From the NCBI RefSeq assembly GCF_006345805.1, contig NW_021832404.1:22667-86666 (forward strand): 64,000 nucleotides of DNA. The letters are read 5' to 3'. Source of the stretch: Octopus sinensis (taxonomy: Eukaryota). The notes beneath the pieces were generated by a model. It worked only from the letters and a program-made list of their open reading frames with translations, searched no databases and was not told where the DNA came from. Numbering within the stretch: the stretch's first letter is position 1; every line of letters begins with the position of its first letter. This document shows, piece after piece, positions 113-63,237 of this stretch. The translations under genes and the position numbers were made by a program.

Positions 113-116
113 CTTT

Positions 117-512
117 GCCGACAGAGATCAAAGAGGAGTACCGACAGAGATCAAAGAAGGTGCCGACAGAGATCAAAGAGGGTCCCCATAGAGATCAAAG
201 AGGGTGCCGACAGAGATCAAAGAGGAGTACCGACAGAGATCAAAGAAGGTGCCGACAAAGATCAAAGAGGTTGCCCACAGAGATCAAAGAAGGTGCCGAA
301 AGTGATCAAAGAGGAGTTCCGAAAAAGATCGAAGAGGAGTACCGAAAGAGATCAAAGAGGGTACCGACAGAGATCAAAGAAGGTACCGAAAGAGATCAAA
401 GAGGACTACCGAAAGAGATCAAAGAATGTGCCGACAGAGATTAAAGAGGGTGCCGAAAGAGATCAAAGAAGGGCCGACAGAGGTCAAAGAGGAGTACCGA
501 AAATGATCAAAG
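117..512 (+). repeat. 22/24-bp tandem array (GCCGACAGAGATCAAAGAGGGT, with GGAGTA variants), about 17-18 units
   Basis: Recurring RCCGAMAGAGATCAAAGA core with 22- or 24-bp spacing; followed by one inverted unit at ~519-542. Confidence 0.95.
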
Positions 513-1291: not shown

Positions 1292-1295
1292 CTTT

Positions 1296-1690
1296 GCCGA
1301 CAGAGATCAAAGAGGAGTACCGACAGAGATCAAAGAAGGTGCCGACAGAGATCAAAGAGGGTCCCCATAGAGATCAAAGAGGGTGCCCACAGAGATCAAA
1401 GAGGAGTACCGACAGAGATCAAAGAAGGTGCCGACAAAGATCAAAGAGGTTGCCCACAGAGATCAAAGAAGGTGCCGAAAGTGATCAAAGAGGAGTTCCG
1501 AAAAAGATCGAAGAGGAGTACCGAAAGAGATCAAAGAGGGTACCGACAGAGATCAAAGAGGTACCGAAAGAGATCAAAGAGGACTACCGAAAGAGATCAA
1601 AGAATGTGCCGACAGAGATTAAAGAGGGTGCCGAAAGAGATCAAAGAAGGGCCGACAGAGATCAAAGAGGAGTACCGAAAATGATCAAAG
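1296..1690 (+). repeat. 22/24-bp tandem array, second copy of 117-512
   Basis: Same diagnostic variants in the same order (gtccccatag, ttgcccacag, aagtgatc, gatcgaag, gattaaag, aaatgatc). Confidence 0.95.
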
Positions 1691-36000: not shown

Positions 36001-39000
36001 GAACATTCAGAGAGGGGATTTGAAGGTGAAGGGGAGGAAGGAATATTGAACATTCCAGAGAGAGGGATTTGAAGGTGAAGGGGAGGAAGGGGAGGAAGGT
36101 ATTGAACATTCTAGAGAGGGGGATTTGAAGGTGAAGGGGAGGAAGGGGAGGAAGGAATATTGAACATTCCAGAGAGGTGGATTTGAAGGTGAAGGGGAGG
36201 AAGGGGAGAAAGGAATATTGAACATTACAAAGATGGGGATTTCAAGGTGAAGGGGAGGAAGGGATGGATGGAATATTGAACATTCCAGAGAGGGGGATTT
36301 GAAGGTGAAGGGGAGGAATGGGAGGAAGGAATATTGAACATTCCAGAGAGGGGGATTTTAACGTTAAGGGGAGGAATGGGAAGAAGGAATATTGAACATT
36401 CCAGAGAGAGGGATTTTAAGGTTAAGGGGAGGAATGGGAAGAAGGAATATTGAACATTCCAGAGAGGGGGATTTGGAGGTGAAAGGGAGGAATGGGAAGA
36501 AGGAATGTTGAACATTCCAGAGAGGGGGATTTGAAGGTGAAGGGGAGGAAGTTGAGGAAGAAATATTAAACATTCCAGAGAGGGGGATTTGAAGGTGAAG
36601 GTATGGAATGGGAAGAAGGAATAATGAACATTCCAGAGAGGGGGATATGAAGGTGAAGGGGAGGAAGGGGAGATAGGAATACTGAACATTACAAAGATGG
36701 GGATTTCAAGGTGAAGGGGAGGAAGGGGAGGATGGAATAATTAAGATTCCAGAAGAGGGGATTTAATGGTAAAGGGAGAATGGGAAAAAGGAATATTGAA
36801 CATTCCAGAGAGGGGGATTTGAAAGTAAATCGGAGGAATGGGAAGAAGGAATATTGAACATTCCAGAGAGGGGGATTTGAAGGTAAAGGGAGAATGGGAA
36901 GAAGGAATATTGAAAATTCCAGAGAGGGGGATGTGAAGGTAAATGGGATGAAATGGAAGAAGGAATATTTAACATTCCAGAGAGGGGGATTTGAAGGTGG
37001 AAGAGAGCAATGGGAAGAAGCATTATTGAAGATTCCAGAGATGGGGATTTGAAGGTGAAAGGGAGGAAGGGGAGAAAGGAATATTGAACATTTCAGAGAG
37101 GGGGATTTGAAGGTTAAGGGGAGAAATGGGAAGAAGGAATATTGAACATTCCAGAGATGGGATTTGAAGGTGAAGGTGAGGAAGGAGAGGAAGGGATACT
37201 GAACATTCCAGAGAGGGGATTTGAAGGTGAAGGGGGGAAGGGCAGGAAGGAATATTGAACATTCCAGAGAGGGGGATTTGAAGGTGAAGGGGAGGAAGTG
37301 GAGAAAGGAATACTGAACATTGCAGAGAGGGGGATTTGAAGGTAAATGGAGGAATGGGAAGAAGGAATATTTATCCTTCCAGAGAGGGGGATTTGAAGGT
37401 GAAGGTAAGGAATGGGAAAAAGGAATATTGAACATTACAGGGAGTGGGATTTCAAGGTAAAGGGGAGGAAAGGGAAGAAGAACATTGAACATTCCAGAGG
37501 GAGAGATTTCAAGGTAAAGGGGAGAATGTGAAGAAGGAATATTGAACATTCCAGAAGAGGGATTTAAAGGTAAGGGGAGGAATTGGAAAAGGAACATGAA
37601 CATTACATACTGAGAAGGGGATTTGAAGGTAAAGGCGAGGAATGGGAAGAAGGAATATTGAACATTCCAGGAGGAGGATTTGAAGGTAAATGGGAGGAAT
37701 GGGAAGAAGGAATATTGAACATTCCAGGAGAGGATTTGAAGTGAAGAAGGAAGGGAAGAAGGATATTGAACATTACTGAGAGGGGATTTGAAGGTAAAGG
37801 GGAGGAATGGGAAGAAGGAATATAGAACATTCCAGAGAGGGGGATTTGAAGGTAAAGGAAAGAATGGGAAGAAGTAATATTGAACATTCCATAAGGGGGA
37901 TTTGAAGGTGAAGGGGAGGAATGGGAAGAAGGAATATTGAACATTCCAGAGAGGGAGATTTGAAGGGAAAGGGGAGGAATGGGAAGAAGGAATATTAAAC
38001 ATTCCAGAGAGGGGGATTTGAAGGTGAAGGCTAGGAAGGGGAGGAAGGAACATTGAACATTGCAGAGAGTGGGATTTGAAGATGAAGGGGAGGAAGGGGA
38101 GGAATGAATATTGAACATTGCAGAGAGGGGGATTTGAAGGTGAAGGGGAGGAATGGGAAGAAGGAATATTCAACATTCGAGAGAGTAGTATGTGAAGGTA
38201 AAGGGGAAGAATGGGAAGAAGGAATATTGAACATTACAGAGAGGGGGATTTGAAGGTGAAGGAGAGGAAGAGGAGGAAGGAATATTGAACATTCAAGAGA
38301 GGGGGATTTGAAGGTGAAGGGGAGGAAGGAATATTGAACATTCCAGAGAGAGGGATTTGAAGGTGAAGGGGAGGAAGGGGAGGAAGGTATATTGAACATT
38401 CTAGAGAGGGGGATTTGAAGGTGAAGGGGAGGAAGGGGAGGAAGGAATATTGAACATTCCAGAGAGGTGGATTTGAAGGTGAAGGGGAGGAAGGGGAGAA
38501 AGGAATATTGAACATTACAAAGATGGGGATTTCAAGGTGAAGGGGAGGAAGGGATGGATGAATATTGAACATTCCAGAGAGGGGGATTTGAAGGTGAAGG
38601 GGAGGAATGGAGGAAGGAATATTGAACATTCCAGAGAGGGGATTTTAACGTTAAGGGGAGGAATGGGAAGAAGGAATATTGAACATTCCAGAGAGAGGAT
38701 TTTAAGGTTAAGGGGAGGAATGGGAAGAAGGAATATTGAACATTCCAGAGAGGGGATTGGAGGTGAAAGGGAGGAATGGAAGAAGGAATGTTGAACATTC
38801 CAGAGAGGGGGATTTGAAGGTGAAGGGGAGGAAGTTGAGGAAGAAATATTAAACATTCCAGAGAGGGGGATTTGAAGGTGAAGGTATGGAAGGGAAGAAG
38901 GAATAATGAACATTCCAGAGAGGGGGATATGAAGGAAGGGGAGGAAGGGGAGATAGGAATACTGAACATTACAAAGATGGGGATTTCAAGGTGAAGGGGA

Positions 39001-42000
39001 GGAAGGGGAGGATGGAATAATGAAGATTCCAGAGAGGGGGATTTAATGGTAAAGGGGAGGAATGGGAAGAAGGAATATTGAACATTCCAGAGAGGGGGAT
39101 TTGAAAGTAAATCGGAGGAATGGGAAGAAGGAATATTGAACATTCCAGAGAGGGGGATTTGAAGGTAAAGGGGAGGAATGGGAAGAAGGAATATTGAAAA
39201 TTCCAGAGAGGGGGATGTGAAGGTAAATGGGATGAATGGGAAGAAGGAATATTTAACATTCCAGAGAGGGGGATTTGAAGGTGAAAGAGAGCAATGGGAA
39301 GAAGCAATATTGAAGATTCCAGAGATGGGGATTTGAAGGTGAAAGGGAGGAAGGGGAGAAATGAATATTGAACATTTCAGAGAGGGGGATTTGAAGGTTA
39401 AGGGGAGAAATGGGAAGAAGGAATATTGAACATTCCAGAGATGGGATTTGAAGGTGAAGGTGAGGAAGGAGAGGAAGGGATACTGAACATTCCAGAGAGG
39501 GGGATTTGAAGGTGAAGGGGAGGAAGGGCAGGAAGGAATATTGAACATTCCAGAGAGGGGGATTTGAAGGTGAAGGGGAGGAAGTGGAGAAAGGAATACT
39601 GAACATTGCAGAGAGGGGGATTTGAAGGTAAATGGAGGAATGGGAAGAAGGAATATTTATCCTTCCAGAGAGGGGGATTTGAAGGTGAAGGTAAGGAATG
39701 GGAAAAAGGAATATTGAACATTACAGGGAGTGGGATTTCAAGGTAAAGGGGAGGAATGGGAAGAAGGAACATTGAACATTCCAGAGGGAGAGATTTCAAG
39801 GTAAAGGGGAAGAATGTGAAGAAGGAATATTGAACATTCCAGAGAGAGGGATTTAAAGGTAAAGGGGAGGAATTGGAAGAAGGAACATTGAACATTACTG
39901 AGAAGGGGATTTGAAGGTAAAGGCGAGGAATGGGAAGAAGGAATATTGAACATTCCAGGGAGGAGGATTTGAAGGTAAATGGGAGGAATGGGAAGAAGGA
40001 ATATTGAACATTCCAGGGAGGAGGATTTGAAGATGAAGGTAAGGAATGGGAAGAAGGAATATTGAACATTACTGAGAAGGGGATTTGAAGGTAAAGGGGA
40101 GGAATGGGAAGAAGGAATATAGAACATTCCAGAGAGGGGGATTTGAAGGTAAAGGAAAGAATGGGAAGAAGTAATATTGAACATTCCATAAGGGGGATTT
40201 GAAGGTGAAGGGAGGAATGGGAAGAAGGAATATTGAACATTCCAGAGAGGGAGATTTGAAGGGAAAGGGGAGGAATGGGAAGAAAGAATATTGAACATTC
40301 CAAGGAGGGGGGATTTAAAGGTAAAGGGGAAGAATGGGAAGAAGGATTATTGAACATTCCAGAGAGGGGGATTTGAAGGTAAACGTAAAGAATGGGAACA
40401 AGAAATATTGAACGTTCCAAAGAGTGGGATTTGAAGCTGAATGGGTGGAATGGGAAGAAGGAATATTGAACATTCCATACAGTGGGATTTGAAGGTGAAG
40501 GGGAGGAATAGGAGGAATGAATATTGAACATTCCATAGAGGGTGATGTGAAGGTGAAGGGGAGGAATGTGACGAAGGAATATTGAACATTCCAGAGAGGG
40601 GGATTTGAAGGTAAAGGTGAGGAAGGAGAGGAAGGAATATTGAACATTCCAGAGAGGGGGATTTGAAGGTGAAGGGGAGGAAAAGGAGGAAGGAATATTG
40701 AACATTCCAGAGAGGGGGATTTGAAGATGAAGGGGAGGAAGGGGAGGAAGTAATATTGAACATTCCAGAGAAAGGGATATGAAGGTAAAGGGGAGGAAGG
40801 GGAGGAAGGAATATTGAACATTCCAGAGTGGGGGATTTGAATGTGAAGGGGAGGAAGGGGAGAAAGGAATACTGAACATTCCAGAGAGGGGGATTTGAAG
40901 GTGAAGGGGAGGAAGTGGAGAAAAAAATACTGAACATTCCAGAGAAAGGGATATGAAGGTAAAGAGGAGGAAGGGGAGGAAGGAATATTGAACATTCCAG
41001 AGTGGGGGATTTGAAGGTGAAGGGGAGGAAGGGGAGAAAGGAATACTGAACATTCCAGAGAGGGGGATATGAAGGTGAAGGGGAGGAATGGGAAGAAGGA
41101 ATATTGAACATTCCAGAGTGGGGGATTTGAAGGTGAAGGGGAGGAAGTGGAGAAAAAAATACTGAACATTCTAGAGACGGGGATTTCAAGGTGAAGGGGA
41201 GGAGGGGAGGAAGGAATATTGAACATTCCAGAGAGGGGGATTTGAAGGTAAAGTGAGGAAGGAGAGGAAGGAATATTGAACATTCCAGAGAGGGGATTTG
41301 AAGGTGAAGGGGAGGAAAAAAGGAGAGGAATATTGAACATTCCAGAGAGGGGGATTTGAAGATGAAGGGGAGGAAGGGGAGGAAGTAATATTGAACATTC
41401 CAGAGAAAGGGATATGAAGGTAAAGGGGAGGAAGGGGAGGAGGAATATTGAACATTCCAGAGAGGGGGATTTGAATGTGAGGGGAGGAAGGGGAGAAAGG
41501 AATATGAACATTCCAGAGAGGGGGATTTGAAGTGAAGGGGGGAAGTGGAAAAAAATACTGAACATTCCAGAGAAAGGGATATGAAGGTAAAGAGGAGAAG
41601 GGGAGGAAGGATATTGAACATTCCAGAGTGGGGGATTTGAAGGTGGGGAGGAAGGGGAGAAAGGAATACTGAACATTCCAGAGAGGGGGATATGAAGGTG
41701 AAGGGGAGGAATGGGAAGAAGGAATATTGAACATTCCAGAGTGGGGGATTTGAAGGTGAAGGGGAGGAAGTGGAGAAAAAAATACTGAACATTCTGAGAC
41801 GGGGATTTCAAGGTGAAGGGGGGAGGGTAGGAAGGAATATTGAACATTCCAGAGAGGGGGATTTGAAGGTGAAGGGGAGGAATGGAGGAAGGAATATTGA
41901 ACATTCCAGAGAGGGGGATTTTAAGGTGAAGGGGAGGAATGGGAAGAAGGAATATTGAACATTCCAGAGAGAGGGATTTGAGGTAAAGGGAGGAATGGGA

Positions 42001-45000
42001 AGAAGGAATATTGAACATTCCAGAGAAGGGGATTTGAAGGTGAAGGTAAGGAATGGGAAGAAGGAATATTGAACATTCCAGAGAGGGGGATTTGGAGGTG
42101 AAAGGGAGGAATGTAAGAAGGAATATTGAACATTCCAGAGAGGTGGATTTGAAGGTGAAGGGGAGGAAGTGGAGGAAGAATATTGAACATTCCAGAGTGG
42201 GGGATTTGAAGGTGAAGGTATGGAATGGGAAGAAGGAATATTGAACATCCAGAGAGGGGGATTTGAAGGTGAAGTTAGGAATGGAAGAAGGATATTGAAC
42301 ATTGCAGAGAGGGGATTTGATGGTAAAGGGGAGGAATGGGAAGAAGGAATATTGAACATACCAGAGAGTGTGATTTGACGATAAAGGGGAGGAATGGGAA
42401 GAAGGAATATTCAACATTCCACAGAGGGGGATGTGAAGTTAAAGGGGAGGAATGGGAAGAAGGAATATTGAACATTCCAGAGAGGGGGATTTGAAGGTGA
42501 AGGGGAGGAAGGAGAGAAAGGGATACTGAACATTCCAGAGAGGGGGATTTGAATGTAAAAGGAATGAAGGGGATGAAGGAATATTGAACATTACAGAGAG
42601 GGGGATTTGAAGGTGAAGGAGGAAGGGGAGGAAGGATATTGAACATTCCAGAGAGGGATTTTGAAAGTGAAAGGGAGGAAGTGCAGAAAGGAATACTGAA
42701 CATTGCAGAGAGGGGGATTTGAAGGTAAATGGAGGAATGGGAAGAAGGAATATTTATCCTTCCAGAGAGGGGGATTTGAAGGTGAAGGTAAGGAATGGGA
42801 AGAAGGAATATTGAACATTCCAGAGAGAGAGATTTCAAGGTAAAGGGGAGGAATGGGAAGAAGGAATATTGAACATTCCAGAGAGGGGGATTTAAAGGTA
42901 AAGGGGAGGAATGGGAAGAAGGAACATTGAACATTACAGAGAAGGGGATTTGAAGGTAAAGGGGAGGAATGGGAAGAAGGAATATTGAACATTCCAGGGA
43001 GGAGGATTTGAAGGTGAAGGTAAGGAATTGGAAGAAGGAATATTGAACATTACAGAGAAGGGGAATTGAAGGTAAAGGGGAGGAATGGGAAGAAGGAATA
43101 TTGAACATTCCAGAGAGGGCGATTTGAAGGTAAAGGTGAGGAATAGGAAGTGGGAATATTGAACATTCCAGAGAGGGGGATTTGAGGATGAAGTGGAAGA
43201 AGAGGAGGAAGGAATATTGAACATTTCAGAGAGGGGGGTTTGAAGATGAAGGGGAGGAAGGGGAGGAAGGAATATTGAACATTCAAGAGAGGGGTATTTG
43301 AAGGTGAAGGGGAGGAAAAGGAGGAAGGAATATTGAACATTCCAGAGAGGGGGATTTGAAGATGAAGGGGAGGAAGGGGAGGAAGGAATATTGAACATTC
43401 CAGAGAGGGGGAGTTGAAGTTGAAGGGGAGGAAGGGGACAAAGGAATACTGAACATTCCAGAGAGGGGGATTTGAAGGTGAAGGGGAGGAAGGAATATTG
43501 AACATTCCAGAGAGGGGGATTTGAAGATGAAGGAGAGGAAGTGTAGGAAGGAATACTGAACATTCCAGAGAAGGGAATTTGAAGGTGAAGGGGAGGAAAA
43601 GGAGGAAGGAATATTGAACATTCCAGAGAGGATGATTTTAAGGTGAAGGGGAGGAATGGGAAGAAGGAATATTGAACATTCCAGAGAGGGGGATTTGAAG
43701 GTGAAGGGGAGGAATGGGATGAAGGAATATTGAACATTCCAGAGAGGGGGAATTTAAGGTGAAGGGGAGGAATCTGAAAACGGAATTTTGAACATTCCAG
43801 AGAGGGGGAATTTAAAGGTAATGTAAGGAATGGGAAGAAGGAATATTGAACATTCCAGAGAGGGGGGATTTAAGGTAAGGTAAGAAAATGGTGAAGGTAA
43901 GGAATGGTGAAGGTGAAGGTAAGGAATATTGAACATTCCAGAGAAGGGATTTGGAGGTGAAGGGGAGGAATGTGAAGAAGGATATTGAACATTCCAAGAG
44001 GGGGGATTTGAAAGTAAGGGGCGGAAAGGGAAGAAGGAATATTGAACATTCCAGAGAGGGGGATTAGAAGGTGAAAGAGAGCAATGGGAAGAAGCAATAT
44101 TGAACATTCCAGAGAGAGGGATTAGAAGGTTAAAGGGAGGAAGGGGAGAAAGTAATATTGAACATTCCAGAGAGGACGATTTGAAGGTAAAGGGGAGGAA
44201 TGGGAAGAAGGAATATTAAACATTCCAGAGAGGGGGATTTGAAGTTAAAGGGGAGGAATGGGAAGAAGGAATATTGAACATTCCAGAGAGGGGGATTTGA
44301 AGGTGAAGGGGAGGAAGAGGAGGAAGAAATATTGAACATTGCTGAGAGGAGGTATTTGAAGGTGAAGGAGAGGAAGTGGAGGAAGAGATACTGAACATTC
44401 CAGAGAGGGGGATTTGAAGGTGAAATGGAGGTAGGGGAGGAATGAATATTGAACATTCCATAGAGTGGAATTTGAAGGTGAAGGGGAGGAAGGGGAGGAA
44501 GGAATATTTAACTTTCCAGACAAGGGGAATCTAAGGTAAAGGGAGGAATGGGAAGAAGGAATATTTAACATTCCAGAGATTGTGGATTTGAAGGTGAAGG
44601 GGAGAAATATTGAACATTCCAGAGAGGGGGATTGAAGGTGAAGGGGAGGAAGGGAGGAAGGAATTTTGAACATTCCAGAGAGGGGGATTTGAAGTTGAAG
44701 GGGAGGAATAAGAAGGAATATTGAACATTCCAGAGAGGGGGGGTTGAAGGTAAGGGGAGGAATGGGAGAAGGAATATTGAACATTCCTGAGAGGGTGATT
44801 TGAAAGCGAAGGGGAGGAAGGGGTGGAAGGAATATTCAACATTCCAGTGAGTGGGGATTTGAAGGTGAAGGGGGGAAGGAATATTGACCATTCCAGAGAG
44901 GGGGATTTGAAGGTGAAGGGGAGGAAGGGGGGAAGGAATATTAAACATTCCAGAGAGGGGGATTTGAAGGTGCAGGGGAAGAAGTGGAGAAAGGAATACT

Positions 45001-48000
45001 GAACATTCCAGAGAGGGGGATTTGAAGGTAAAGGGGAGGAATGGGGAGGAGGAATATTTAACCTTCCAGAGAGTGGGATTTGAAGGTGAAGGTAAGGAAT
45101 GGGAAAAGGAATATTGAACATTCCAGTTAGGGGATTTGAAGGTAAAGGGGAGGAATGGGAGAAGGAATATTGATTATTCCAGAGATCGGGATAGAAAGGT
45201 AAAGGGAATGGGTTAAAGGAATATTGAACATTCCAGAGAGGGGATTTGAAGGTGAATTGGATGAATGGGAAGAAGGAATATTGAACATTCCAGAGAGGGG
45301 GATTTGAAGGTGATGGGGAGGAAAAGGAGGAAGGAATATTGAACATTTCAGAGGGGGATTTGAAGGTGAATTGGAGGTAGGGGAGGAAGGAATATTGAAC
45401 ATTCCAGAGAGCGGGATTTGAAGGTGACGGGGAGGAAGGAATATTGAACATTCCAGAGAGGGGCATTTGAAGGTGAAGGGTGGAAAGGGAGGAAGGGATA
45501 TTGAACATTCCAGAGAGAGGGATTTGAAGGTAAGGGGAGGAATGGAAAAACAATCTTGAACATACCAGAGGGGGGGATTTAAAGGTGAAGGGGAGGAAGG
45601 GTAGGGAGGAATTTGAACATTCCAGAGAGGGGGATTTGAAGGTGAAGGGGGAAGGAATATTGAACATTCCAGAGAGGGGGATTTGAAGGTGAAGGAGAGG
45701 AAGGCTAGGAAGGAATATTGAAAATTCCAGAGGGGGGGATTTGAAGTTGAAGGGGAGGAATGGGATGAAGGAATATTCAACATTCCAGAGAGTGGGATTT
45801 GTAGCTAATGGGGAGGAATGGGTAGAAGGAATATTGAACATTCCAGAGGGGGGGATTTTAAGGTGAAGGGAAGGAATGGGAAGAAGGAATATTGAACATT
45901 CCAGAAAGGGGGATTTGAAGGTAAAGTGGAGGAATGGGATGAAGGAATATTGAACATTCCAGAGTGGGGGATTTGAAGGTGAAGGGGAGGAATGGGAAGA
46001 AGGAATATTGATCATTCCAGAGAGGGGGATTTGAAGGTAAAGGTAAGGAATGGGAAGAAGGAATATTGAACATTCCAGAGAGGGGGATGTGAAGGTGAAT
46101 GTAAGGAATGGTGAAGTAAGGAATGGTGAAGGTGAAGGTAAGAATATGGAACATTCCAGAGAGAGGGATTTGGAGGTGAAGGGAGGTATGGAAGAAGGAA
46201 TATTGAACATTCCAGAGAGGTGGATTTGAATATAAAGGGGCGGAATGGGAAGAAGGAATATTGAACAATCCAGAGAGGGGGATTTGAAGGTGAAAGAGAG
46301 CAATGGGAAGAAGCAATATTGAACATTCCAGAGAGGGGGATTAGAAGGTTAAAGGGAGGAAGGGGAGGAAGGAATATTGAACATTCCAGAGAGGAGGATT
46401 TGAAGGTAAAGGGGAGGAATGGGAAGAATGAATGTTGAACATTCCAGAGAGGGGGATTTGAAGTTGAAGGGGAGGAATAAGAAGGAATATTGAACATTCC
46501 AGAGAGGGGGATTTGAAGGTGAAGGGGAGGAATGGGAGGAAGGAATATTGAACATTCCAGAGAGGGGGATTATAAGGTGAAGGGGAGGAATGGGAAGAAG
46601 GAATATTGAACATTCCAGAGAGAGGGATTTGAAGGTAAAGGGGAGGAATGGGAAGAAGGAATATTGAACATTCCAGAGAAGGGGATTTGAAGGTGAAGGT
46701 AAGGAATGGGAAGAAGGAATATTGAACATTCCAGAGAGGGGGATTTGGAGGTGAAAGGGAGGAATGTGAAGAAGGAATATTGAACATTCCAGAGAGGTGG
46801 ATTTGAAGGTGAAGGGGAGGAAGTGGAGGAAGAAATATTGAACATTCCAGAGTGGGGGATTTGAAGGTGAAGGTATGGAATGGGAAGAAGGAATATTGAA
46901 CATCCAGAGAGGGGGATTTGAAGGTGAAGTTAAGGAATGGGAAGAAGGAATATTGAACATTGCAGAGAGGGGGATTTGATGGTAAAGGGGAGGAATGGGA
47001 AGAAGGAATATTGAACATACCAGAGAGTGTGATTTGACGGTAAAGGGGAGGAATGGGAAGAAGGAATATTCAACATTCCACAGAGGGGGATGTGAAGTTA
47101 AAGGGGAGGAATGGGAAGAAGAATATTGAACATTCCAGAGAGGGGATTTGAAGGTGAAGGGGAGGAAGGAGAGAAAGGGATACTGAACATTCATTCCAGA
47201 GAGGGGATTTGAATGTAAAGGAATGAAGGGATTAAGGAATATTGAACATTACAGAGAGGGGGATTTGAAGGTGAAGGGGAGGAAGGGGAGGAAGGAATAT
47301 TGAACATTCCAGAGAGGGGGATTTGAAAGTGAAAGGGAGGAAGTGCAGAAAGGAATACTGAACATTGCAGAGAGGGGGATTTGAAGGTAAATGGAGGAAT
47401 GGGAAGAAGGAATATTTATCCTTCCAGAGAGGGGGATTTGAAGGTGAAGGTAAGGAATGGGAAGAAGGAATATTGAACATTCCAGAGAGAGAGATTTCAA
47501 GGTAAAGGGGAGGAATGGGAAGAAGGAATATTGAACATTCCAGAGAGGGGGATTTAAAGGTAAAGGGGAGGAATGGGAAGAAGGAATATTAAACATTCCA
47601 GGGAGGAGGATTTGAAGGTGAAGGTAAGGAATTGGAAGAAGGAATATTGAACATTACAGAGAAGGGGAATTGAAGGTAAAGGGGAGGAATGGGAAGAAGG
47701 AATAGTGAACATTCCAGAGAGGGCGATTTGAAGGTAAAGGTGAGGAATAGGAAGTGGGAATATTGAACATTCCAGAGAGTGGGATTTGAGGATGAAGTGG
47801 AAGAAGAGGAGGAAGGAATATTGAACATTTCAGAGAGGGGGGTTTGAAGATGAAGGGGAGGAAGGGGAGGAAGGAATATTGAACATTCAAGAGAGGGGTA
47901 TTTGAAGGTGAAGGGGAGGAAAAGGAGGAAGGAATATTGAACATTCCAGAGAGGGGGATTTGAAGATGAATGGGAGGAAGGGGAGGAAGGAATATTGAAC

Positions 48001-51000
48001 ATTCCAGAGAGGGGGGTTGAAGTTGAAGGGGAGGAAGGGGACAAGGAATACTGAACATTCCAGAGAGGGGATTTGAAGGTGAAGGGAGGAAGGAATATTG
48101 AACATTCCAGAGAGGGGATTTGAAGATGAAGGAGAGGAATGTAGGAAGGAATACTGAACATTCCAGAGAAGGGAATTTGAAGGTGAAGGGGAGGAAAAGG
48201 AGGAAGGAATATTGAACATTCCAGAGAGGATGATTTTAAGGTGAAGGGGAGGAATGGGAAGAAGGAATATTGAACATTCCAGAGAGGGGGATTTGAAGGT
48301 GAAGGGGAGGAATGGGATGAAGGAATATTGAACATTCCAGAGAGGGGGAATTTAAGGTGAAGGGGAGGAATCTGAAAACGGAATTTTGAACATTCCAGAG
48401 AGGGGAATTTAAAGGTAAATGTAAGGAATGGGAAGAAGGAATATTGAACATTCCAGAGAGGGGGATTTTAAGGTAAGGTAAGAAATGGTGAAGGTAAGGA
48501 ATGGTGAAGGTGAAGGTAAGGAATATTGAACATTCCAGAGAAAGGGATTTGGAGGTGAAGGGGAGGAATGTGAAGAAGGAATATTGAACATTCCAGAGAG
48601 GGGGATTTGAAAGTAAAGGGGCGGAAAGGGGAAGAATAATATTGAACATTCCAGAGAGGGGGATTAGAAGGTGAAAGAGAGCAATGGGAAGAAGCATATT
48701 GAACATTCCAGAGAGAGGGATTAGAAGGTTAAAGGGGAGGAAGGGGAGAAAGTAATATTGAACATTCCAGAGAGGACGATTTGAAGGTAAAGGGGAGGAA
48801 TGGGAAGAAGGAATATTAACCATTCCAGAGAGGGGGATTTGAAGTTAAAGGGGAGGAATGGGAAGAAGGAATATTGAACATTCCAGAGAGGGGGATTTGA
48901 AGGTGAAGGGGAGGAAGAGGAGGAAGAAATATTGAACTTGCTGAGAGAGGTATTTGAAGGTGAAGGAGAGGAAGTGGAGGAAGAGATACTGAACATTCCA
49001 GAGAGGGGGATTTGAAGGTGAAATGGAGGTAGGGGAGGAATGAATATTGAACATTCCATAGAGTGGAATTTGAAGGTGAAGGGGAGGAATGGGAAGAAGG
49101 AATATTTAACATTCCAGAGATTGTGGATTTGAAGGTGAAGGGGGAAGAAATATTGAACATTCCAGAGAGGGGGATGTGAAGGTGAAGGGGAGGAAGGGGA
49201 GGAAGGAATTTTGAACATTCCAGAGAGGGGGATTTGAAGTTGAAGGGGAGGAATAAGAAGGAATATTGAACATTCCAGAGAGGGGGATTTGAAGGTAAAG
49301 GGGAGGAATGGGAAGAAGGAATATTGAACATTCCTGAGAGGGTGATTTGAAAGCGAAGGGGAGGAAGGGGTGGAAGGAATATTCAACATTCCAGAGAGTG
49401 GGGATTTGAAGGTGAAGGGGGGAATGAATATTGACCATTCCAGAGAGGGGGATTTGAAGGTGAAGGGGTGGAAGGGGGGGAAGGAATATTAAACATTCCA
49501 GAGAGGGGGATTTGAAGGTGAAGGGGAAGAAGTGGAGAAAGGAATACTGAACATTCCAGAGAGGGGGATTTGAAGGTAAAGGGGAGGAATGGGGAGGAGG
49601 AATATTTAACCTTCCAGAGAGTGGGATTTGAAGGTGAAGGTAAGGAATGGGAAAAAGGAATATTGAACATTCCAGTTAGGGGGATTTGAAGGTAAAGGGG
49701 AGGAATGGGAAGAAGGAATATTGATTATTCCAGAGATCGGGATAGAAAGGTAAAGGGGAGGAATGGGTTAAAGTAAAGAATATTGAACATTCCAGAGAGG
49801 GGGATTTGAAGGTGATTGGATGAATGGGAAGAAGGAATATTGAACATTCCAGAGAGGGGGATTTGAAGGTGATGGGAGGAAAGGAGAAGGAATATTGAAC
49901 ATTTCAGAGAGGGGGATTTGAAGGTGAATTGGAGGTAGGGGAGGAAGGAATATTGAACATTCCAGAGAGCGGGATTTGAAGGTGACGGGGAGGAAGGAAT
50001 ATTGAACATTCCAGAGAGGGGCATTTGAAGTGAAGGGTGAAAGGGAGGAAGGATATTGAACATTCCAGAGAGGGGGATTTGAAGGTAAAGGGGAGGAATG
50101 GGAAAAACAATCTTGAACATACCAGAGAGGGGGATTTAAAGGTGAAGGGGAGGAAGGGTAGGGAGGAATATTGAACATTCCAGAGAGGGGGGGTTTACGG
50201 TGACGGGGAGGAAGGGGGCGGGGGAATATTGAACATTCCAGAGAGGGGGATTTGAAGGTGAAGGGGGAAGGAATATTGAACATTCCAGAGAGGGGGATTT
50301 GAAGGTGAAGGAGAGGAAGGCTAGGAAGGAATATTGAAAATTCCAGAGGGGGGGATTTGAAGTTGAAGGGGAGGAATGGGATGAAGGAATATTCAACATT
50401 CCAGAGAGTGGGATTTGTAGCTAATGGGGAGGAATGGGTAGAAGGAATATTGAACATTCCAGAGGGGGGGATTTTAAGGTGAAGGGGAGGAATGGGAAGA
50501 AGGAATATTGAACATTCCAGAGAGGGGGATTTGAAGGTAAAGGGGAGGAATGGGATGAAGGAATATTGAACATTCCAGAGTGGGGATTTGAAGGTGAAGG
50601 GGAGGAATGGGAAGAAGGAATATTGATCATTCCAGAGAGGGGGATTTGAAGGTAAAGGTAAGGAATGGGAAGAAGGAATATTGAACATTCCAGAGAGGGG
50701 GATGTGAAGGTGAATGTAAGGAATGGTGAAGGTAAGGAATGGTGAAGGTGAAGGTAAAGAATATGGAACATTCCAGAGAGAGGGATTTGGAGGTGAAGGG
50801 GAGGTATGGGAAGAAGGAATATTGAACATTCCAGAGAGGTGGATTTGAATATAAAGGGGCGGAATGGGAAGAAGGAATATTGAACAATCCAGAGAGGGGG
50901 ATTTGAAGGTGAAAGAGAGCAATGGGAAGAAGCAATATTGAACATTCCAGAGAGGGGGATTAGAAGGTTAAAGGGAGGAAGGGGAGGAAGGAATATTGAA

Positions 51001-54000
51001 CATTCCAGAGAGGAGGATTTGAAGGTAAAGGGGAGGAATGGGAAGAATGAATGTTGAACATTCCAGAGAGGGGATTTGAAGTTGAAGGGGAGGAATAAGA
51101 AGGAATATTGAACATTCCAGAGAGGGGGATTTGAAGGTAAAGGGGAGGAATGGAAGAAGGAATATTGAACATTCCAGAGAGGGGATTTGAAAGCGAAGGG
51201 GAGGAAGGGGTGGAAGGAATATTCAACATTCCAGAGAGTGGGGATTTGAAGGTGAAGGGGGGAATGAATATTGACCATTCCAGAGAGGGGATTTGAAGGT
51301 GAAGGGGAGGAAGGGGGGGAAGGAATATTAAACATTCCAGAGAGGGGGATTTGAAGGTGAAGGGGAAGAAGTGGAGAAAGGAATACTGAACATTCCAGAG
51401 AGGGGGATTTGAAGGTAAAAAGGAGGAATGGGGAGAAGGAATATTTAACCTTCCAGGTAGGGGGATTTGAAGGTGAAGGTAAGGAATGGGAAAAAGGAAT
51501 ATTGAACATTCCAGGTAGGGGGATTTGAAGGTAAAGGGGAGGAATGGGAAGAAGGAATATTGATTATTCCAGAGATCGGGATAGAAAGGTAAAGGGGAGG
51601 AATGAGTTAAAGGAATATTGAACATTCCAGAGAGGAGGATTTGAAGGTGAATTGGATGAATGGGAAGAAGGAATATTGAACATTCCAGAGAGGGGGATTT
51701 GAAGGTGATGGGGAGGAAAAGGAGGAAGGAATATTGAACATTTCAGAGAGGGGGATTTGAAGGTGAATTGGAGGTAGGGGAGGAAGGAATATTGAACATT
51801 CCAGAGAGCGGGATTTGAAGGTGACGGGGAGGAAGGAATAATGAACATTCCAGAGAGGGGCATTTGAAGGTGAAGGGTGGAAAGGGAGGAAGGGATATTG
51901 AACATTCCAGAGAGGGGGATTTGAAGGTAAAGGGGAGGAATGGGAAAAACAATCTTGAACATACCAGAGGGGGGGATTTAAAGGTGAAGGGGAGGAAGGG
52001 TAGGGAGGAATATTGAACATTCCAGAGATTGGGATTTGAAGGTGAATGGGAGGAAGGGGAGGGAGGAATATTGAACATTCCAGGAGGGGGGTTTACGGTG
52101 AAGGGGAGGAAGGGGGCGGGGGAATATTGAACATTCCAGAGAGGGGATTTGAAGGTGAAGGGGGAAGGAATATATGAAACATTCCAGAGAGGGGGATTTG
52201 AAGGTGAAGGAGAGGAAGGCGTGGAAGGAATATTAAAATTCCAGAGGGGGGGATTTGAAGTTGAAGGGGAGAATGGATGAAGGAATATTCAACATTCCAG
52301 AGAGTGGGATTTGTAGCTAATGGGGAGGAATGGGTAGAAGGAATATTGAACATTCCAGAGGGGGGGGATTTTAGGTGAAGGGAAGGAATGTGAGAAGGAA
52401 TATTGAACATTCCAGAGAGGGGGATTTGAAGGTAAAGGGGAGGAATGGGATGAAGGAATATTGAACATTCCAGAGAGGGGGATTTTAAGGTGAAGGGGAG
52501 GAATGGTGAAGGTAAGGAATGGTGAAGGTGAAGGTAAGGAATATGGAACATTCCAGAGAGAGGGATTTGGAGGTGAAGGGGAGGTATGGGAAGAAGGAAT
52601 ATTGAACATTCCAGAGAGGTGGATTTGAAGGTAAATGGGCGGAATGGGAAGAAGGAATATTGAACATTCCAGAGAGGGGGATTTGAAGGTGAAAGAGAGC
52701 AATGGGAAGAATCAATATTGAACATTCCAGAGAGGGGGATTAGAAGGTTAAAGGGAGGAAGGGGAGGAAGGAATATTGAACATTCCAGAGAGGAGGATTT
52801 GAAGGTAAAGGGGAGGAATGGGAAGAAGGAATATTGAACATTCCTGAAAGGGGGATTTGAAGGTAATGGGGAGGAATGGGAAGAAGCAATATTGAACATT
52901 CCAGAGAGGGGGATTTGAAGGTGAAGGGGAGGAAGGGGAAGAAGGAATATTGAACATTCCAGAGAGTGGGATTTAAAGGTGAGGTGGAGGAATGGGAAGA
53001 AGGAATATTGAAAATTCCCGAGGGGGGGATTTGAAGGTGAAGGTGGGGAATGTGAAGAAGGAATATTGAACATTCCATAGAGGGGGATTTGAAGGTGAAA
53101 GGAGGAATGGGAAGAAGGAATATTGAACATTCCAAAGAGTGGGATTTGAAGTTGAATGGGTGGATTGGGAAGAAGGAATATTGAACATTCCAGAGAGGGG
53201 GATTTGAAGGTGAAGGTAAGGAATGGCGAAGGTAAGGAATGGTGAAGGTGAAGGTAAGGAATATTGAACATTCCAGAGAGAGGGATTTGGAGGTTAAGGG
53301 GAGGTATGGGAAGAAGGAATATTGAACATTCCAGAGAGGGGGATTTGAAGGTAAAGGGGCGGAATGGGAAGAAGGAATATTGAACATTCCAGAGAGGGGG
53401 ATTTGAAGGTGAATTGGATGAATGGGAAGAAGGAATATTGAACATTCCAGAGAGGGGGATTTGAAGGTGAATTGGAGGTAGGGGAGGAAGGAATATTGAA
53501 CATTCCAGAGAGCGGGATTTGAAGGTTACGGGGAGAAGGAATATTGAACATTCCAGAGAGGGGCATTTGAAGGTGAAGGGTGGAAAGGGAGGAAGGGATA
53601 TTGAACATTCCAGAGAGGGGGATTTGAAGGTAAAGGGGAGGAATGGGAAAAACATCTTGAACATACCAGAGGGGGGGATTTAAAGGTGAAGGGATGAAGG
53701 TAGGGAGGAATATTGAACATTCCAGAGATTGGGATTTGAAGGTGAATGGGAGGAAGGGGAGGGAGGAATATTGAACATTCAGAGAGGGGGGTTTACGGTG
53801 AAGGGGAGGAAGGGGGCGGGGAAATATTGAACATTCCAGAGAGGGGATTTGAAGGTGAAGGGGGAAGGAATATTGAACATTCCAGAGAGGGGGATTTGAA
53901 GGTGAAGGAGAGGAAGGCGAGGAAGGAATATTGAAAATTCCAGAGGGGGGGATTTTTGAAGTTGAAGGGGAGGAATGGGATGAAGGATATTCAACATTCC

Positions 54001-55840
54001 AGAGAGTGGATTTGTAGCTAATGGGGAGGAATGGGTAGAAGGAATTTTGAACATTCCAGAGGGGGGGGATTTTACGGTGAAGGGTGGAAGGGGAAGAAGG
54101 AATATTGAACATTCCAGAGAGGGGGTTTGAAGGTAAAGGGGAGGAATGGGATGAAGGAATATTGAACATTCCAGAGAGGGGGGATTTTAAGGTGAAGGGG
54201 AGGAATGGAATAAGGAATATTGAACATTCCAGAGAGGGGGATTTGAAGGTAAGGTAAGGAAGGGAAGAAGGAATATTGAACATTCCAGAGAGGGGGATTT
54301 GAAGGTGAAGTAAGGAATGGTGAAGGTAAGGAATGGTGAAGGTGAAGGTAAGGATATGGAACATTCCAGAGAGAGGGATTTGGAGGTGAAGGGGAGGTTG
54401 GGAAGAAGGATTATTGAACATTCCAGAGAGGTGGATTTGAAGGTAAAGGGGCGGATGGAAGAAGGAATATTGAACATTCCAGAGTGGGGGTTTGAAGGTG
54501 AAAGAGAGCAATGGGAAGAAGCAATATTGAACATTACAGAGAGGGGGATTAGAAGGTTAAAGGGAGGAAGGGGAGGAAGGAATATTGAACATTCCAGAGA
54601 GGAGGATTTGAAGGTAAAGGGGAGGAATGGGAAGAAGGAATATTGTACATTCCTGAGAGGGGGATTTGAAGGTAATGGGGAGGAATGGGAAGAAGGAATA
54701 TTGAACATTCCAGAGAGGGGGATTTGAAGGTGAAGGGGAGGAAGGGGAAGAAGGAATATTGTACATTCCAGAGAGTGGGATTTAAAGGTGAGGTGGAGGA
54801 ATGTGAAGAAGGAATATTGAAAATTCCAGAGGGGGGGATTTGAAGGTGAAGGTGGGGAATGTGAAGAAGGAATATTGAACATTCCATAGAGGGGGATTTG
54901 AAGGTGAAAAGGAGGAATGGGAAGAAGGAATATTGAACATTCCAAAGAGTGGGATTTGAAGTTGAATGGGTGGAATGGGAAGAAGGAATATTGAACATTC
55001 CAGAGAGGGGGAATTGAAGGTGAAGGTAAGGAATGGTGAAGGTGAAGGTAAGGAATATTGAACATTCCAGAGAGAGGGATTTGGAGGTGAAGGGGAGGTA
55101 TGCGAAGAAGGAATATTGAACATTCCAGAGAGGGGGATTTGAAGGTAAAGGGGCGGAATGGGAAGAAGGAATATTGAACATTCCAGAGAGGGGGATTTGA
55201 AGGTGAAAGAGAGCGATGGGAAGAAGCAATATTGAACATTCCAGAGAGGGGGATTAGAAGGTTAAAGGGAGGAAGGGGAGGAAGGAATATTGAACATTCC
55301 AGAGAGGAGGATTTGAAGGTAAAGGGGAGGAATGGGAAGAAGGAATATTGAACATTCCAGAGAGGGGGATTTGAAGGTGAAGGGGAGGAAGGGGAAGAAG
55401 GAATATTGAACATTCCAGAGAGTGGGATTTAAAGGTGAGGTGGAGGAATGTGAAGAAGGAATATTGAAAATTCCAGAGGGGGGGATTTGAAGGTGAAGGT
55501 GGGGAATGTGAAGAAGGAATATTGAACATTCCATAGAGGGAGATTTGAAGGTGAAAAGGAGGAATGGGAAGAAGGAATATTGAACATTCCAAAGAGTGGG
55601 ATTTGAAGTTGAATGGGTGGAATGGAAGAAGGAATATTGAACATTCCATACAGTGGGATTTGAAGGTGAAGGGGAGGAATAGGAAGAATGAATATTGAAC
55701 ATTCCATAGAGGGGGATTTGAAGGTGAAGGGGAAGAATGGGACGAAGGAATATTGAACATTAAATAGAGTTTGGATTTGAAGGTGAAGGGGAGGAATGGG
55801 AATAAGGAATATTGAACTTTCCAGAGAGGGAGATTTGGAG
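3029..55840 (+). repeat. 58-bp satellite array, about 900 units; consensus GAATATTGAACATTCCAGAGAGGGGGATTTGAAGGTRAAGGGGAGGAATGGGAAGAAG
   Basis: Unit counted as 58 nt; repeat-derived ORF starts recur at 58-bp steps (e.g. 17657, 17599); single orientation throughout; 45 of 58 consensus bases are purines on the + strand. Confidence 0.98.
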
Positions 55841-58530: not shown

Positions 58531-58696
58531 TGTCAGGAATGTCAGGAATGTCTGGAATGTCAGGAATGTCAGGATTACCGGAATATCTGGAATGTCAGTA
58601 ATATCTGGAATGTCTGGAATGTCTGGAATGTCAGGAATGTCTGGAATGTCTGGAATGTCTGGAATGTCAAGAATGTTTGGAATGTGAGGAATGTCA
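58530..58696 (-). repeat. 9-bp array in inverted orientation (WGGAATGTC)n
   Basis: Reverse complement of the left-flank 9-bp array, including the cacatt..aaacattcttgac variant next to the junction. Confidence 0.95.
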
Positions 58697-60535
58697 GAGA
58701 TCAGAGGTGCCGACAGAGACACCATCTTTGATCATTTTCGGTACTCCTCTTTGATCTCTGTCGGCCCTTCTTTGATCCCTGTCGGCCCTTCTTTGATCTC
58801 TTTCGGCACCCTCTTTCATCTCTGTCGGCACATTCTCTGATCTCTTTCGGTAGTCCTCTTTGATCTCTTTCGGTACCTTCTTTGATCTCTGTCGGTACCC
58901 TCTTTGATCTCTTTCGGTACTCCTGTTTGATCCATTTCGGTACTCCTCTTTGATCACTTTCGGTACCTTCTTTGATCTCTGTGGGCACCCTCTTTGATCT
59001 CTGTCGGCACCTTCTTTGATCTCTGTCGGTACTCCTCTTTGATCTCTGTCGGCACCCTGTTTGATCTCTGTCGGTACCCTCTTTGATCTTTTTCGGTACT
59101 CCTCTTTGATCTCTGTCGGCAACCTCTTTGATCTCTGTCGGCACCCTCTTTGATCTCTTTCGGCACCCTCTTTGATATCTGTCGGCACCCTTTTTGATCT
59201 CTTTCGACACCCTTTTTGATCTCTGTAGGTCCTTCTTTGATCTCTTTCGGCACCCTCTTTGATCTCTGATAGAAAGAGATCAAAGAGGGTGCCGACAGAG
59301 ACCAAAGAGGAGTACCGAAAAATATATCTTTCGGTACTCCTCTTTCATCTCTGTCAGCACTATCTTTGATCTTTTTCGGTACTGCTCTTTGATCTCTGTC
59401 GGCACCCTCTTTGATCTTTTTCGGTACTCCTCTTTGATCTCTGTCGGCCCTTCTTTGATATCTTTCGGCACCCTCTTTGATCTCTGTCGGCACCCTCTTT
59501 GATATCTGTCGGCACCTTCTTCGATCTTTTTCGGTACTCCTCTTTCATCTCTTTCGGCACCCTCTTTGATCTATGTCGTCACACTCATTGATCTTTTTCG
59601 GTACTCCTCTTTGGTCTCTGTCGGCAACCTCTTTGATCTTTGTCGGCACCCTCTTTGATCTCTTTCGGCATCCTCTTTGATCCCTTTAGGTGCTCCTCTT
59701 TGATCTCTGTCGGCACCTTCTTTGATCTCTTTAGGTTCTCCTCTTTGATCTCTGTCGGTACTCCTCTTTGATCTATGTCGGCACTCTCTTTGATCTCTTT
59801 CGGTACTCCTCTTTGATCTCTGTCTGCACCCTCTTTGATCTCTTTCGATACTCCTCTTTGATCTCTGTCGGCACCCTGTTTGATCTCTTCCGACACTCTC
59901 TTTGATATCTCTCGGCACCCTCTTTGATCTCTGTTTGTCCCCTTTTTGATGTCTTTCGACTCCCTTTTTGTTCTCTGTCGGCACCCTCTTTGATGTCTTT
60001 CGACACCCTCTTTGATCTCTTTCGGCACCCTCTTTGATCTCTGTCGGTACTACCTTTGATCTCTTTAGGCACCCTCTTTGATGTCTGTCGGCACTCTCTT
60101 TGATATCTTTCGGGACTCTTCTCTGATCTCTTTCGGCACAATTTTTTATCTCTTTCGGCACCCTATTTGATCTCTTTCGGTGCCCTATTTCATCTCTGTC
60201 GGGACCCTTTTTGATCTCTTTCGGCACCCTCTTTGATCTTTTTCGGCACCCTCTTTTATCTCGGTCGGCACCCACTTTGATCTCTTTCGGTACTCCTCTT
60301 TGATATCTGTCGGCACCCTCTTTGATCTCTGTCGGCACCCTCTCTGATCTCTTTCGGCACCCTCTTTTATGTCTTTCTGTACTCCTCTTTGACCTCTTTC
60401 GGTACGCTCTTTGATGTCTGTCGGCACCCTTTTTGATCTCTTTCGGCACCCTGTTTAATGTCTTTCGGCGCACTCTTTGATCTCTTTCGGGACTCCTCAT
60501 TGATCTCTCTCGGGACTCTTTCATCTCTTTCGGCG
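58697..60535 (-). repeat. 22/24-bp array in inverted orientation (CTCTTTGATCTCTGTCGGCACC)n, about 80 units, with a micro-inversion at ~59272-59322
   Basis: Reverse complement of 117-512; units become more degenerate towards 60535. Confidence 0.95.
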
Positions 60536-61112
60536 TTTCATTCATTTCGTTTTCTAGCATATCACTCGCCTGCATGACGCTGGGTTTTCCGCTGCTCCGC
60601 TGCTGCATTAACTTTCGGGTAGTGCTCCATGATCTCTGGGCATCTGCAAACGAAACGTATTCCTCTTCCACAATTACCTCGTCGTCTTCACTTTCCACCG
60701 GCTCTTCGTTTTGCCTTACCTCCTTTGCTATTTCTTCTAGAGTGAAACATGTTGGACAATACAAGTGGCGGTAACTTGTATCAGATATTACTAATGATAC
60801 GAGGGGCCCGACAATAACATTTTTCGCAGCATCGATAATCTCCTTCTTTTCCTTCAGCGTAAACTCAGTTCGCTTGCGTTTCTGAGCTGACACTGTGCTA
60901 CTTTCTGAACTTTTCAGATACGAAATGTACAAAATGTAGGAGTACAAAATTTCGAAAAGTTGCTTGCGCTAATTTTACAAGTGGCATAGTAGCGTGAGTT
61001 GAGGGTGGCATAGTAAAATATTTTTGTTTATTATTTGGCCGGGATCGCGCAAAACTGGCATTGTAGTGAGAGTGGCATAGTAGCGAGGTAGCATAGTAGC
61101 GAGAGTTCACTG
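60536..61112 (-). mobile_element. Left end of a pogo/Tigger-like (Tc1/mariner superfamily) DNA transposon, internally deleted
   Basis: Minus strand reads TA|CAGTGAACTCTCGCTACTATGC from 61114/61112, i.e. a TA target plus a CAGT-type TIR. About five subterminal GCATAGTAG-like direct repeats lie at 60981-61103, followed by a transposase-like remnant. Family assigned from recalled features, not a database search. Confidence 0.75.
60538..60881 (-). pseudogene. Deleted Tigger/CENP-B-like transposase remnant (N-terminal HTH start joined to the acidic C-terminal tail; no DDE domain)
   Basis: KRKRTEFTLKEKKEIIDAAKN (60881-60819) resembles the CENP-B-type HTH N-terminus of pogo/TIGD proteins. TLEEIAKEVRQNEEPVESEDDEVIVEEEYVSFADAQRSW resembles their acidic C-terminal region. 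Only ~20 codons separate the two, so the catalytic core is missing. Confidence 0.7.
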
Positions 61113-61144
<32 letters not shown>

Positions 61145-61169
61145 ATATATATATATTTATATAGTGGCG

Positions 61170-61207
<38 letters not shown>

Positions 61208-61245
61208 ATATATATATATATATAATATATATATATATATATACA

Positions 61246-61304
<59 letters not shown>

Positions 61305-61313
61305 TATATATAT

Positions 61314-61381
<68 letters not shown>
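61113..61381. repeat. (TA)n microsatellite with (TC)n and (TACA)n interruptions
   Basis: Direct reading; the transposon end abuts this TA tract. Confidence 0.97.
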
Positions 61382-61944: not shown

Positions 61945-62105
61945 AGGAGAGAGAGAGAATGAGAAGGAGGGAGAGAGGGAATTCAGAGAAAGAAAGGGAG
62001 AAAGAGAGAAGAGAGAGAAAAAGAGGGAGAGAGAGAGAAGAGAGAGAGAGGAAGAAAGGGAGAGAGAAAAGAGAGTGAAAGAGAGGGAGAGAAAGAGGAG
62101 GGAAT
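61945..62105 (+). repeat. GA-rich low-complexity tract
   Basis: Degenerate (GA)n/(GAGG)n. Confidence 0.9.
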
Positions 62106-62188
62106 GGGTTACCGGCTATAGGACAATTGTATTTTATAAGGAAAGAATTTGATTTTAGAAAGAGAAATCCTCTACAAGGAAAGGATAA

Positions 62189-63073: not shown

Positions 63074-63160
<87 letters not shown>

Positions 63161-63236: not shown

Positions 63237-63237
<1 letters not shown>

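What the first reader, a model, noticed from the sequence alone, without database searches (positions are those of the whole stretch)
60380..61114. The 22-bp array appears to originate from the 3' end of a pogo/Tigger transposase gene
Seen: on the minus strand the transposase-like tail (..DMLENEMNE) runs without a junction into aacgccgaaagagatgaaagagtc-ccgagagagatcaatgaggagtc-ccgaaagagatcaaagagtg-cgccgaaagacattaaacagggtg. Divergent proto-units progressively converge on the consensus. Inference: the seed cgccgaaagagatgaaagagtc is the former basic C-terminal coding stretch of the transposase (RRK-x-MK-x-S-like), which was amplified and drifted to the TCF site AGATCAAAG. The whole >60-kb complex may lie inside, or be bounded by, a non-autonomous Tigger element able to spread it. 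Pogo transposases are also the source of CENP-B-like satellite-binding proteins.
Basis: partly seen in the sequence, partly recalled or inferred. Interest (0 to 1): 0.78.

Follow-up and report, generated by a model that had tools for sequence, protein, structure and literature searches.

The report
Satellite fused to broken pogo transposon
In an octopus-type genome, a short repeat array is joined to the cut-off end of a defective DNA transposon at a spot where the two happen to share about 14 letters, which looks like an ordinary repair join rather than the birthplace of the repeat.

Summary
The element is real: 60536-61112 (minus) is a non-autonomous pogo-superfamily transposon with TA site, 5' TIR and an internal deletion shared with two Octopus vulgaris copies. 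The intact tail holds no whole 22-bp seed: it scores 6 against the unit, a score reached by 435 of 600 shuffled windows, while real units score 14 or more. Seven of 10 Octopus proteins and the deep contigs keep the normal tail; none reads into the array. The junction contig is shallow (about one locus), the element tens of times deeper, the repeat over a thousand times. Units near the junction are more decayed but not more transposon-like, and are two to three times more diverged than the element is from its family. No partner TIR is in the window. Best reading (0.72): an older satellite was joined to this one copy by microhomology-mediated repair, which removed the element's 3' end. Origin from this family is not excluded (about 0.2 in all). 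Low interest.

The parts
61113..61381 (.). (TA)n microsatellite; its first TA is the target site next to the element's 5' end
   Evidence: same TA-CAGT start as the complete relative L001
61087..61112 (-). 5' terminal inverted repeat, about 26 bp, beginning CAGT
   Evidence: aligns to the 5' end of L001, whose two 26-bp TIRs bound 3-1962; no partner in the window at up to 6 substitutions
60981..61099 (-). four 12-bp subterminal motif copies (likely transposase binding sites; inference)
   Evidence: 4 hits in the whole window, all here; also present at both ends of L001
60823..60893 (-). first 24 codons of the transposase (start of CENP-B_N-type HTH); start codon is GTG here, ATG in the family
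   Evidence: table 3 (60893); Pfam on full-length relatives
60745..60822 (-). 78-bp filler that replaces the central part (HTH_Tnp_Tc5 and DDE_1) of the transposase gene; also found in other contexts
   Evidence: same 26-residue stretch in P0053 and P0071; contigs that match only 60745-60822 (table 8)
60536..60747 (-). C-terminal coding block of the transposase, about 4-5% from the family contig
   Evidence: 9 differences in 192 letters (X1) and in 212 letters (X4)
60522..60535 (-). junction: 14-nt imperfect microhomology between the RRKKM codons and a satellite unit
   Evidence: (loose end at 60536 in X1 and X4); bridged by contigs in X1 (0 differences in 153) and X2 (1 in 123)
58720..60534 (-). 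22/23-bp satellite array, 82 copies; proximal 30 units more decayed
59272..59334 (+). fold-back inversion of about two units inside the array
   Evidence: sequence
116..512 (+). second array of the same 22-bp family, opposite orientation, entered from 9-bp units, no transposon
   Evidence: 89% identical over 611 columns to 58534-59143
1295..1690 (+). third array of the 22-bp family, copy in a roughly 1.2-kb higher-order repeat
   Evidence: 956 of 992 columns identical to the copy at 116
3029..55837 (+). central 58-bp satellite of the complex (context)

Best explanation
A non-autonomous pogo element inserted at a TA in a (TA)n tract. Later its 3' part was joined to an already existing 22-bp satellite through a chance 12-14-nt match between the RRKKM codons and the CCGAAAGAGAT half of the unit, by microhomology-mediated repair or template switching. 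Either a deletion in cis removed the element's last 190-200 bp, the flank and the outer units, or the break switched to an ectopic array. The copy lost its 3' TIR and is immobile. Shown: element identity, loss of the 3' end, position and size of the homology, normal tail in other copies. Inferred: order of events, the repair pathway, single-locus status.
For: Intact tail has no whole-unit seed (score 6; 435 of 600 random shuffled windows and 300 of 300 shuffled blocks reach it; real units 14 or more). A half-unit match is expected by chance (125 of 600 at 707 nt, 306 of 400 at 1,940 nt), so a landing site was available. Small deletions sit at the join, and the one inside it gives the satellite's spelling, while the 192 letters before it have no gap against the family contig. 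Normal tail: 7 of 10 Octopus proteins, 0 of 10 reading into the array; contigs at depth 1503 (X1) and 58 (X4). Junction contigs at depth 27 (X1) and 67 (X2) against 43,774 and 251,394 over the units. Element 3-5% from its family; units about 8% from the nearest of four consensus types, 17% pairwise, 19% in the proximal 30. Proximal units are not more tail-like. The GTC-CCGA spelling of units 1-2 also occurs in loose ends of other arrays (table 7). Neighbouring modules of the complex overlap by 1-8 nt at 10 boundaries and the array has a fold-back, so such switches are common here. Decay at array ends and joins at short similarities are described for other satellites (PMC5139131, passages).
Against: Units 1 and 2 each carry two tail-like states (ATG and TC; AAT and TC) and none of the other 75 carries two. 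The TCF 9-mer is depleted near the junction. The 10 element bases before the junction match the second half of units at 6 of 10 typically, 7 of 10 in units 1-2 (but 7 is also reached by many distal units). Contig depth is not a copy number, and no assembly could be searched. Satellites need not follow a transposon clock. No outgroup genome was tested.
Confidence: 0.72

Rival explanations
1. This copy seeded the array: the roughly 24-nt stretch coding MNEIRRKK was duplicated by slippage between short repeats, drifted to the present unit and spread to other loci.
For: Junction falls exactly on a homologous stretch; tail-like states cluster in units 1-2; TCF 9-mer rises away from the junction (rho 0.26, p 0.02); minisatellite birth inside transposons by this route is known (PMC6947457, passages).
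Against: Whole-unit similarity at chance level; units more diverged than the element; no gradient of tail likeness; the two bases deleted at the junction are the ones claimed as ancestral in units 1-2, so a simple duplication does not explain both; the family must then have reached over a thousand units and another O. vulgaris chromosome-sized scaffold (P0076) within the element's age.
Confidence: 0.1
2. An older relative of this pogo family seeded the satellite long ago, and today's junction is a secondary join between homologous remnants.
For: A second site, 60642-60613, resembles a full 23-bp period (19 of 23; 4 of 300 codon shuffles; local score 31, 3 of 500). The L001 tail aligns to a unit at 19 of 22 with gaps.
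Against: The second site owes one match to a base private to this copy (60632); without it the score is about 26, reached by 47 of 500 shuffles. The L001 tail score (9) equals the best elsewhere in L001 and the shuffle mean; L001 as a whole is at chance (227 of 400). The unit's ATCAAA core is shared with the 10-bp and 13-bp modules.
Confidence: 0.1
3. The whole complex is cargo of a giant composite or foldback element bounded by pogo ends and is spread by transposition.
For: The 9-bp and 22-bp modules form inverted arms about 58 kb apart (89% over 611 columns); the left end of the complex is outside the window. Tandem-repeat-carrying MITEs exist in molluscs (PMC3879986, abstract start only).
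Against: No second TIR in 64 kb; junction at about single-locus depth; left arrays have no transposon; central DDE region deleted.
Confidence: 0.04
4. Pure coincidence: blunt truncation, or insertion next to the array, with the 14-nt match playing no part.
For: Matches of this size occur by chance somewhere in the element; abrupt satellite junctions without sequence features are reported in bivalves (PMC5139131).
Against: The break would have to fall on one of the few such sites in about 770 bp; a TA insertion alone would leave the 3' TIR in place.
Confidence: 0.04

Closest known systems
pogo superfamily, probably family pogoR (TIGD4/TIGD6-like) rather than Tigger in the strict sense (Gao et al. 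2020, PMC7386202)
   Same: TA target, TIR under 40 bp, relatives of about 511 aa with CENP-B_N (just under cut-off), HTH_Tnp_Tc5 and DDE_1, DD30D in 7 of 9 relatives counted; nearest named relative is 'TIGD4-like'
   Different: This copy lacks the catalytic domain, the ATG and the 3' TIR; family within pogo not tested with a tree
Satellite-transposon junctions at short similarities (Nasonia PSR, Drosophila, bivalves; as summarised in PMC5139131)
   Same: Abrupt join at a short local match; decayed units at the array end
   Different: Here the partner is a pogo deletion derivative and the join keeps the reading frame
Transposon-derived mini- and satellite DNAs (Alu, B1, MITE-derived Xstir, HindIII, BIV160; table in PMC6947457)
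   Same: Array directly continuous with transposon sequence
   Different: In those cases the unit is part of the element; here only half a unit matches and intact copies have no seed
Tandem-repeat-containing MITEs of bivalves (DTC84, pearl/CvA) and foldback elements (the latter recalled)
   Same: Modular short arrays, inverted arms
   Different: No second terminus, no sign of many copies with the same junction, array not an internal module of the element family

Membership tests
pogo-superfamily DNA transposon | Transposase with CENP-B_N/HTH_Tnp_Tc5 and DDE_1 domains | tested here: met
   Met by the full-length relatives; the window remnant matches their N- and C-termini at 58-86% but has no Pfam hit itself
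pogo-superfamily DNA transposon | TA target site and short TIR | tested here: met
   5' end only in the window; both ends in L001
pogoR versus Tigger family | Position in the transposase tree | not tested
   DD30D fits both ranges; the 'TIGD4-like' name points to pogoR; no tree built
non-autonomous deletion derivative (MITE-like family) | Same internal deletion in several copies | tested here: met
   P0053 and P0071 on two different O. vulgaris scaffolds; full-length-type contig also seen (loose end at 60747)
mobilisable MITE (this copy) | Two TIRs | tested here: not met
   No partner TIR within the 64 kb; sequence beyond the window not available
transposon-derived satellite | Intact element contains a whole-unit seed | tested here: not met
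   half-unit match only, whole-unit score at chance
transposon-derived satellite | Units nearest the element are closest to it | tested here: inconclusive
   Units 1-2 carry tail-like states but no trend over units 2-77
transposon-derived satellite | Satellite is younger than, and confined to lineages with, the element | tested here: inconclusive
   Divergence points the other way; species range could not be read: one O. vulgaris hit among 8000 scored candidates
transposon-borne array (DTC84/pearl type, foldback) | Many copies share the same array junction and flanks | tested here: not met
   0 of 10 Octopus proteins read into the array; junction contigs shallow against element contigs (depth is only a rough guide)

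The most novel reading that the evidence does not exclude
A horizontally acquired pogo transposase gene (this copy or an older relative) gave rise from its C-terminal codons to a multi-locus octopus satellite in which each unit pairs a TCF/LEF HMG site with a C-clamp helper-like site, so that a coding fragment became thousands of potential Wnt-effector binding sites, with the birthplace still visible at this locus.
Probability: 0.15. Interest if true: 0.6.

Novelty: new member of a known kind. Interest (0 to 1): 0.2.

Why it matters
As most likely read, it is one more satellite-transposon junction made at a short match. Its use is modest: it dates an edge of an undescribed octopus satellite complex and shows how a microhomology join can mimic a birthplace. 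If the origin reading were true, it would be a rare case where the seed of a satellite family can be traced to named codons, and it would give a source for a large array of TCF-like sites.

Tried and rejected
Pfam on the window peptide: nothing significant. Two-unit pattern in prokaryote genomes and viral contigs: 0 and 0 (not informative for an animal repeat). Rfam on 60300-64000: 0. Four look-ups of earlier findings: nothing. Run search: no RNA holder listed; not used as evidence. X3 and X4 show no contig bridging the junction among those listed (1379 pieces and 148 loose ends were not shown). 72 of the 73 loci are distant (27-48%) and were not used. Inverted-repeat search was swamped by TA tracts. 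A fusion protein was considered: the frame stays open 320 codons into the array (35 of 3000 unit-order shuffles; 0 stops against 7 and 9 in the other frames), but the consensus unit has no stop in any frame, the family ATG is lost, and the test was made after the fact; not taken as evidence of a gene. Gene conversion from satellite into 60642-60613 was considered and dropped, since only one private base supports it. One paper look-up failed on a term format and was not repeated, so the HMG-helper orientation names were not checked.

Full report
What is there. The window is almost all satellite: a 53-kb 58-bp array with 9-, 10-, 13- and 22-bp modules at both ends. On the minus strand, 61112 begins with TA-CAGT after a TA tract, and one frame runs through KRKRTEFTLKEKKEIIDAAK and an acidic block ending LENEMNE into the 22-bp array. 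No whole genome is held. The host is taken to be Octopus from the nearest named proteins; the species is not known.

The element. The 128-residue remnant found 11 longer proteins among 390 candidates, led by O. vulgaris and O. sinensis copies and 492-536-residue transposases. Two relatives scanned carry HTH_Tnp_Tc5 and DDE_1 above cut-off and CENP-B_N just below; 7 of 9 counted are DD30D, one has N at the third position and one has spacing 29. One cluster member is named TIGD4-like, and TIGD4 derives from pogoR (PMC7386202, passages), so 'pogo superfamily, probably pogoR' is safer than 'Tigger'; no tree was built. L001 is a complete relative, bases 3-1962 between two TA, with 26-bp TIRs (my scripts used its first 1,940 bp). 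The window's 5' end aligns to it from the first base. Two O. vulgaris proteins share the window's internal deletion and 26-residue filler, so this is a non-autonomous family. This copy has GTG where others have ATG.

The junction. Contigs of four public runs were laid on 60440-61112 at 80%. The dominant element contig (depth 1503 in X1, 58 in X4) leaves the window at 60536, and its loose end codes IRRKKMRQPT, the family's normal tail. That tail matches window 60535-60522 at 14 letters with one gap. Two bases are missing just before, and after the Met codon the sequences part. By L001's measure about 190-200 bp of the 3' end, with the TIR, are gone. Of 10 Octopus proteins, 7 pass this point with a normal tail, 1 stops at EIR, 2 end earlier, and none reads into the array; some O. 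vulgaris and O. sinensis entries look like orthologous copies, so these are about five or six loci. The junction itself is bridged in X1 (153 letters, 0 differences, depth 27) and X2 (123 letters, 1 difference, depth 67), which carry different species labels; one may be the source sample. Depth over the first units is 43,774 and 251,394. The tool warns that depth is no copy number; taken roughly, the junction is one locus, the element tens of copies and the repeat over a thousand units.

Is there a seed? The half-unit match (local score 19) is reached by 125 of 600 shuffles of 707 nt and 306 of 400 shuffles of 1,940 nt. Aligning a whole unit in any rotation to the intact tail gives 6, reached by 435 of 600 random windows of codon-shuffled sequence; real units give 14 or more. 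What is not chance is that the break falls on the match, which both a repair join and an origin predict.

Is there a gradient? Over 77 parsed units (82 by TRF; the inverted stretch and the last units were left out), distance to the nearest consensus shows no significant trend (rho -0.15, p 0.20), though the first 30 are more decayed (2.1 against 1.5 edits, p 0.016 after the fact). The exact TCF 9-mer is in 8 of the first 30 and 30 of the other 47 (best-split permutation 0 of 300). Likeness to the tail does not fall with distance (rho -0.05, p 0.65). This is decay at an array end, a described pattern (PMC5139131, passages), not convergence from the transposase. Against this reading, units 1 and 2 are the only ones with two tail-like states. 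One of these is explained if the crossover lies after the Met codon, and the GTC-CCGA spelling appears in loose ends of other arrays, where it would lengthen the match and favour such a donor.

Which is older? The element copy differs from its family contigs by 3-5% (tables 3 and 8). Units differ by about 8% from the nearest of four consensus types and by 17% from each other, 19% near the junction. The first units are the same in independent runs, so this is not assembly error. With the scale used for O. vulgaris repeats (0.09 = 25 million years; PMC13282606, first third read plus a term search) the element is roughly 8-13 million years old and the units older; the join is probably older than the 2.5-million-year split of O. 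vulgaris and O. sinensis if those are the two labels (PMC10700109, passages). This is inference: satellites need not keep that clock. A variant of the repeat, next to the 10-bp module, is encoded on another O. vulgaris scaffold with no transposase peptide (P0076).

Is the complex inside the element? No second TIR or subterminal motif occurs in 64 kb. The two left-hand 22-bp arrays are entered from 9-bp units. The 22-bp and 9-bp modules do form inverted arms (89% over 611 columns), and the left end is outside the window, so this is unlikely but not closed.

Mechanism. Most likely (0.72) a microhomology-mediated join of an older satellite to one pogo copy. Adjacent modules of the complex overlap by 1-8 nt at 10 boundaries, and the array holds a fold-back inversion, so seamless switches are the rule here. 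Origin from this copy (0.10) or from an older relative (0.10), cargo of a giant element (0.04) and pure coincidence (0.04) remain.

Literature. Six searches found no description of this satellite or junction; 'satellite' does not occur in the main text of the two O. vulgaris papers, whose supplements were not opened. Transposon-derived tandem repeats are a well-known kind (PMC6947457, passages). TCF motifs are from PMC4154663 (passages) and PMC4267635 (start of abstract). Foldback elements and the repair pathway names are recalled.

Verdict. Observation partly confirmed, origin claim disfavoured, a new example of a known kind of junction. Interest 0.2.

Noticed in passing
window 58720-60534 (also 116-512, 1295-1690): The unit pairs a TCF/LEF HMG core with a helper-like motif: 46 CTTTGWWS sites in the array, RCCG four bases before AGATCAAAG in 30 of 77 units, and 22 copies of GCCGACA (6 of 7 to the fly helper GCCGCCR). 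No chance control or binding test; may be more interesting than the junction.
   Followed up: partly
window 59571-60968 (-): 465-codon stop-free frame joining the transposase remnant to 320 codons of array; first Met at 60608 gives 345 residues; 35 of 3000 shuffles reach this length.
   Followed up: partly
window 60613-60642 (-): A second satellite-like site inside the element, about 100 bp before the junction, 19 of 23 to a full unit; one match is private to this copy.
   Followed up: yes
window 60745-60822: The 78-bp filler of the deleted element also occurs with other flanks in public contigs, so it is a captured piece of another repeat.
   Followed up: no
window 116-744 (+) and 58534-59143 (-): Inverted arms about 58 kb apart with the same order of unit variants and the same 22-to-9-bp spacer, 89% identical; the left side is a roughly 1.2-kb higher-order repeat that runs off the window.
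   Followed up: partly
window 1-58720: The 9-, 10-, 13-, 22- and 58-bp units share short cores (ACATTCC in the 9 and 58; ATCAAA in the 10, 13 and 22), as if derived from one another.
   Followed up: no
proteins P0001-P0031, P0087, P0089: Close relatives of this transposase are named from octopus, a crinoid, a hagfish entry, an apple snail and a myxozoan, which suggests horizontal transfer among aquatic animals; the crinoid and hagfish entries share an identical C-terminal 330 residues, so one may be a merged or mislabelled record.
   Followed up: no
window 62240-62410 and 63640-63670 (-): Stretches that look like common octopus SINE-type repeats (recalled; no Rfam match).
   Followed up: no
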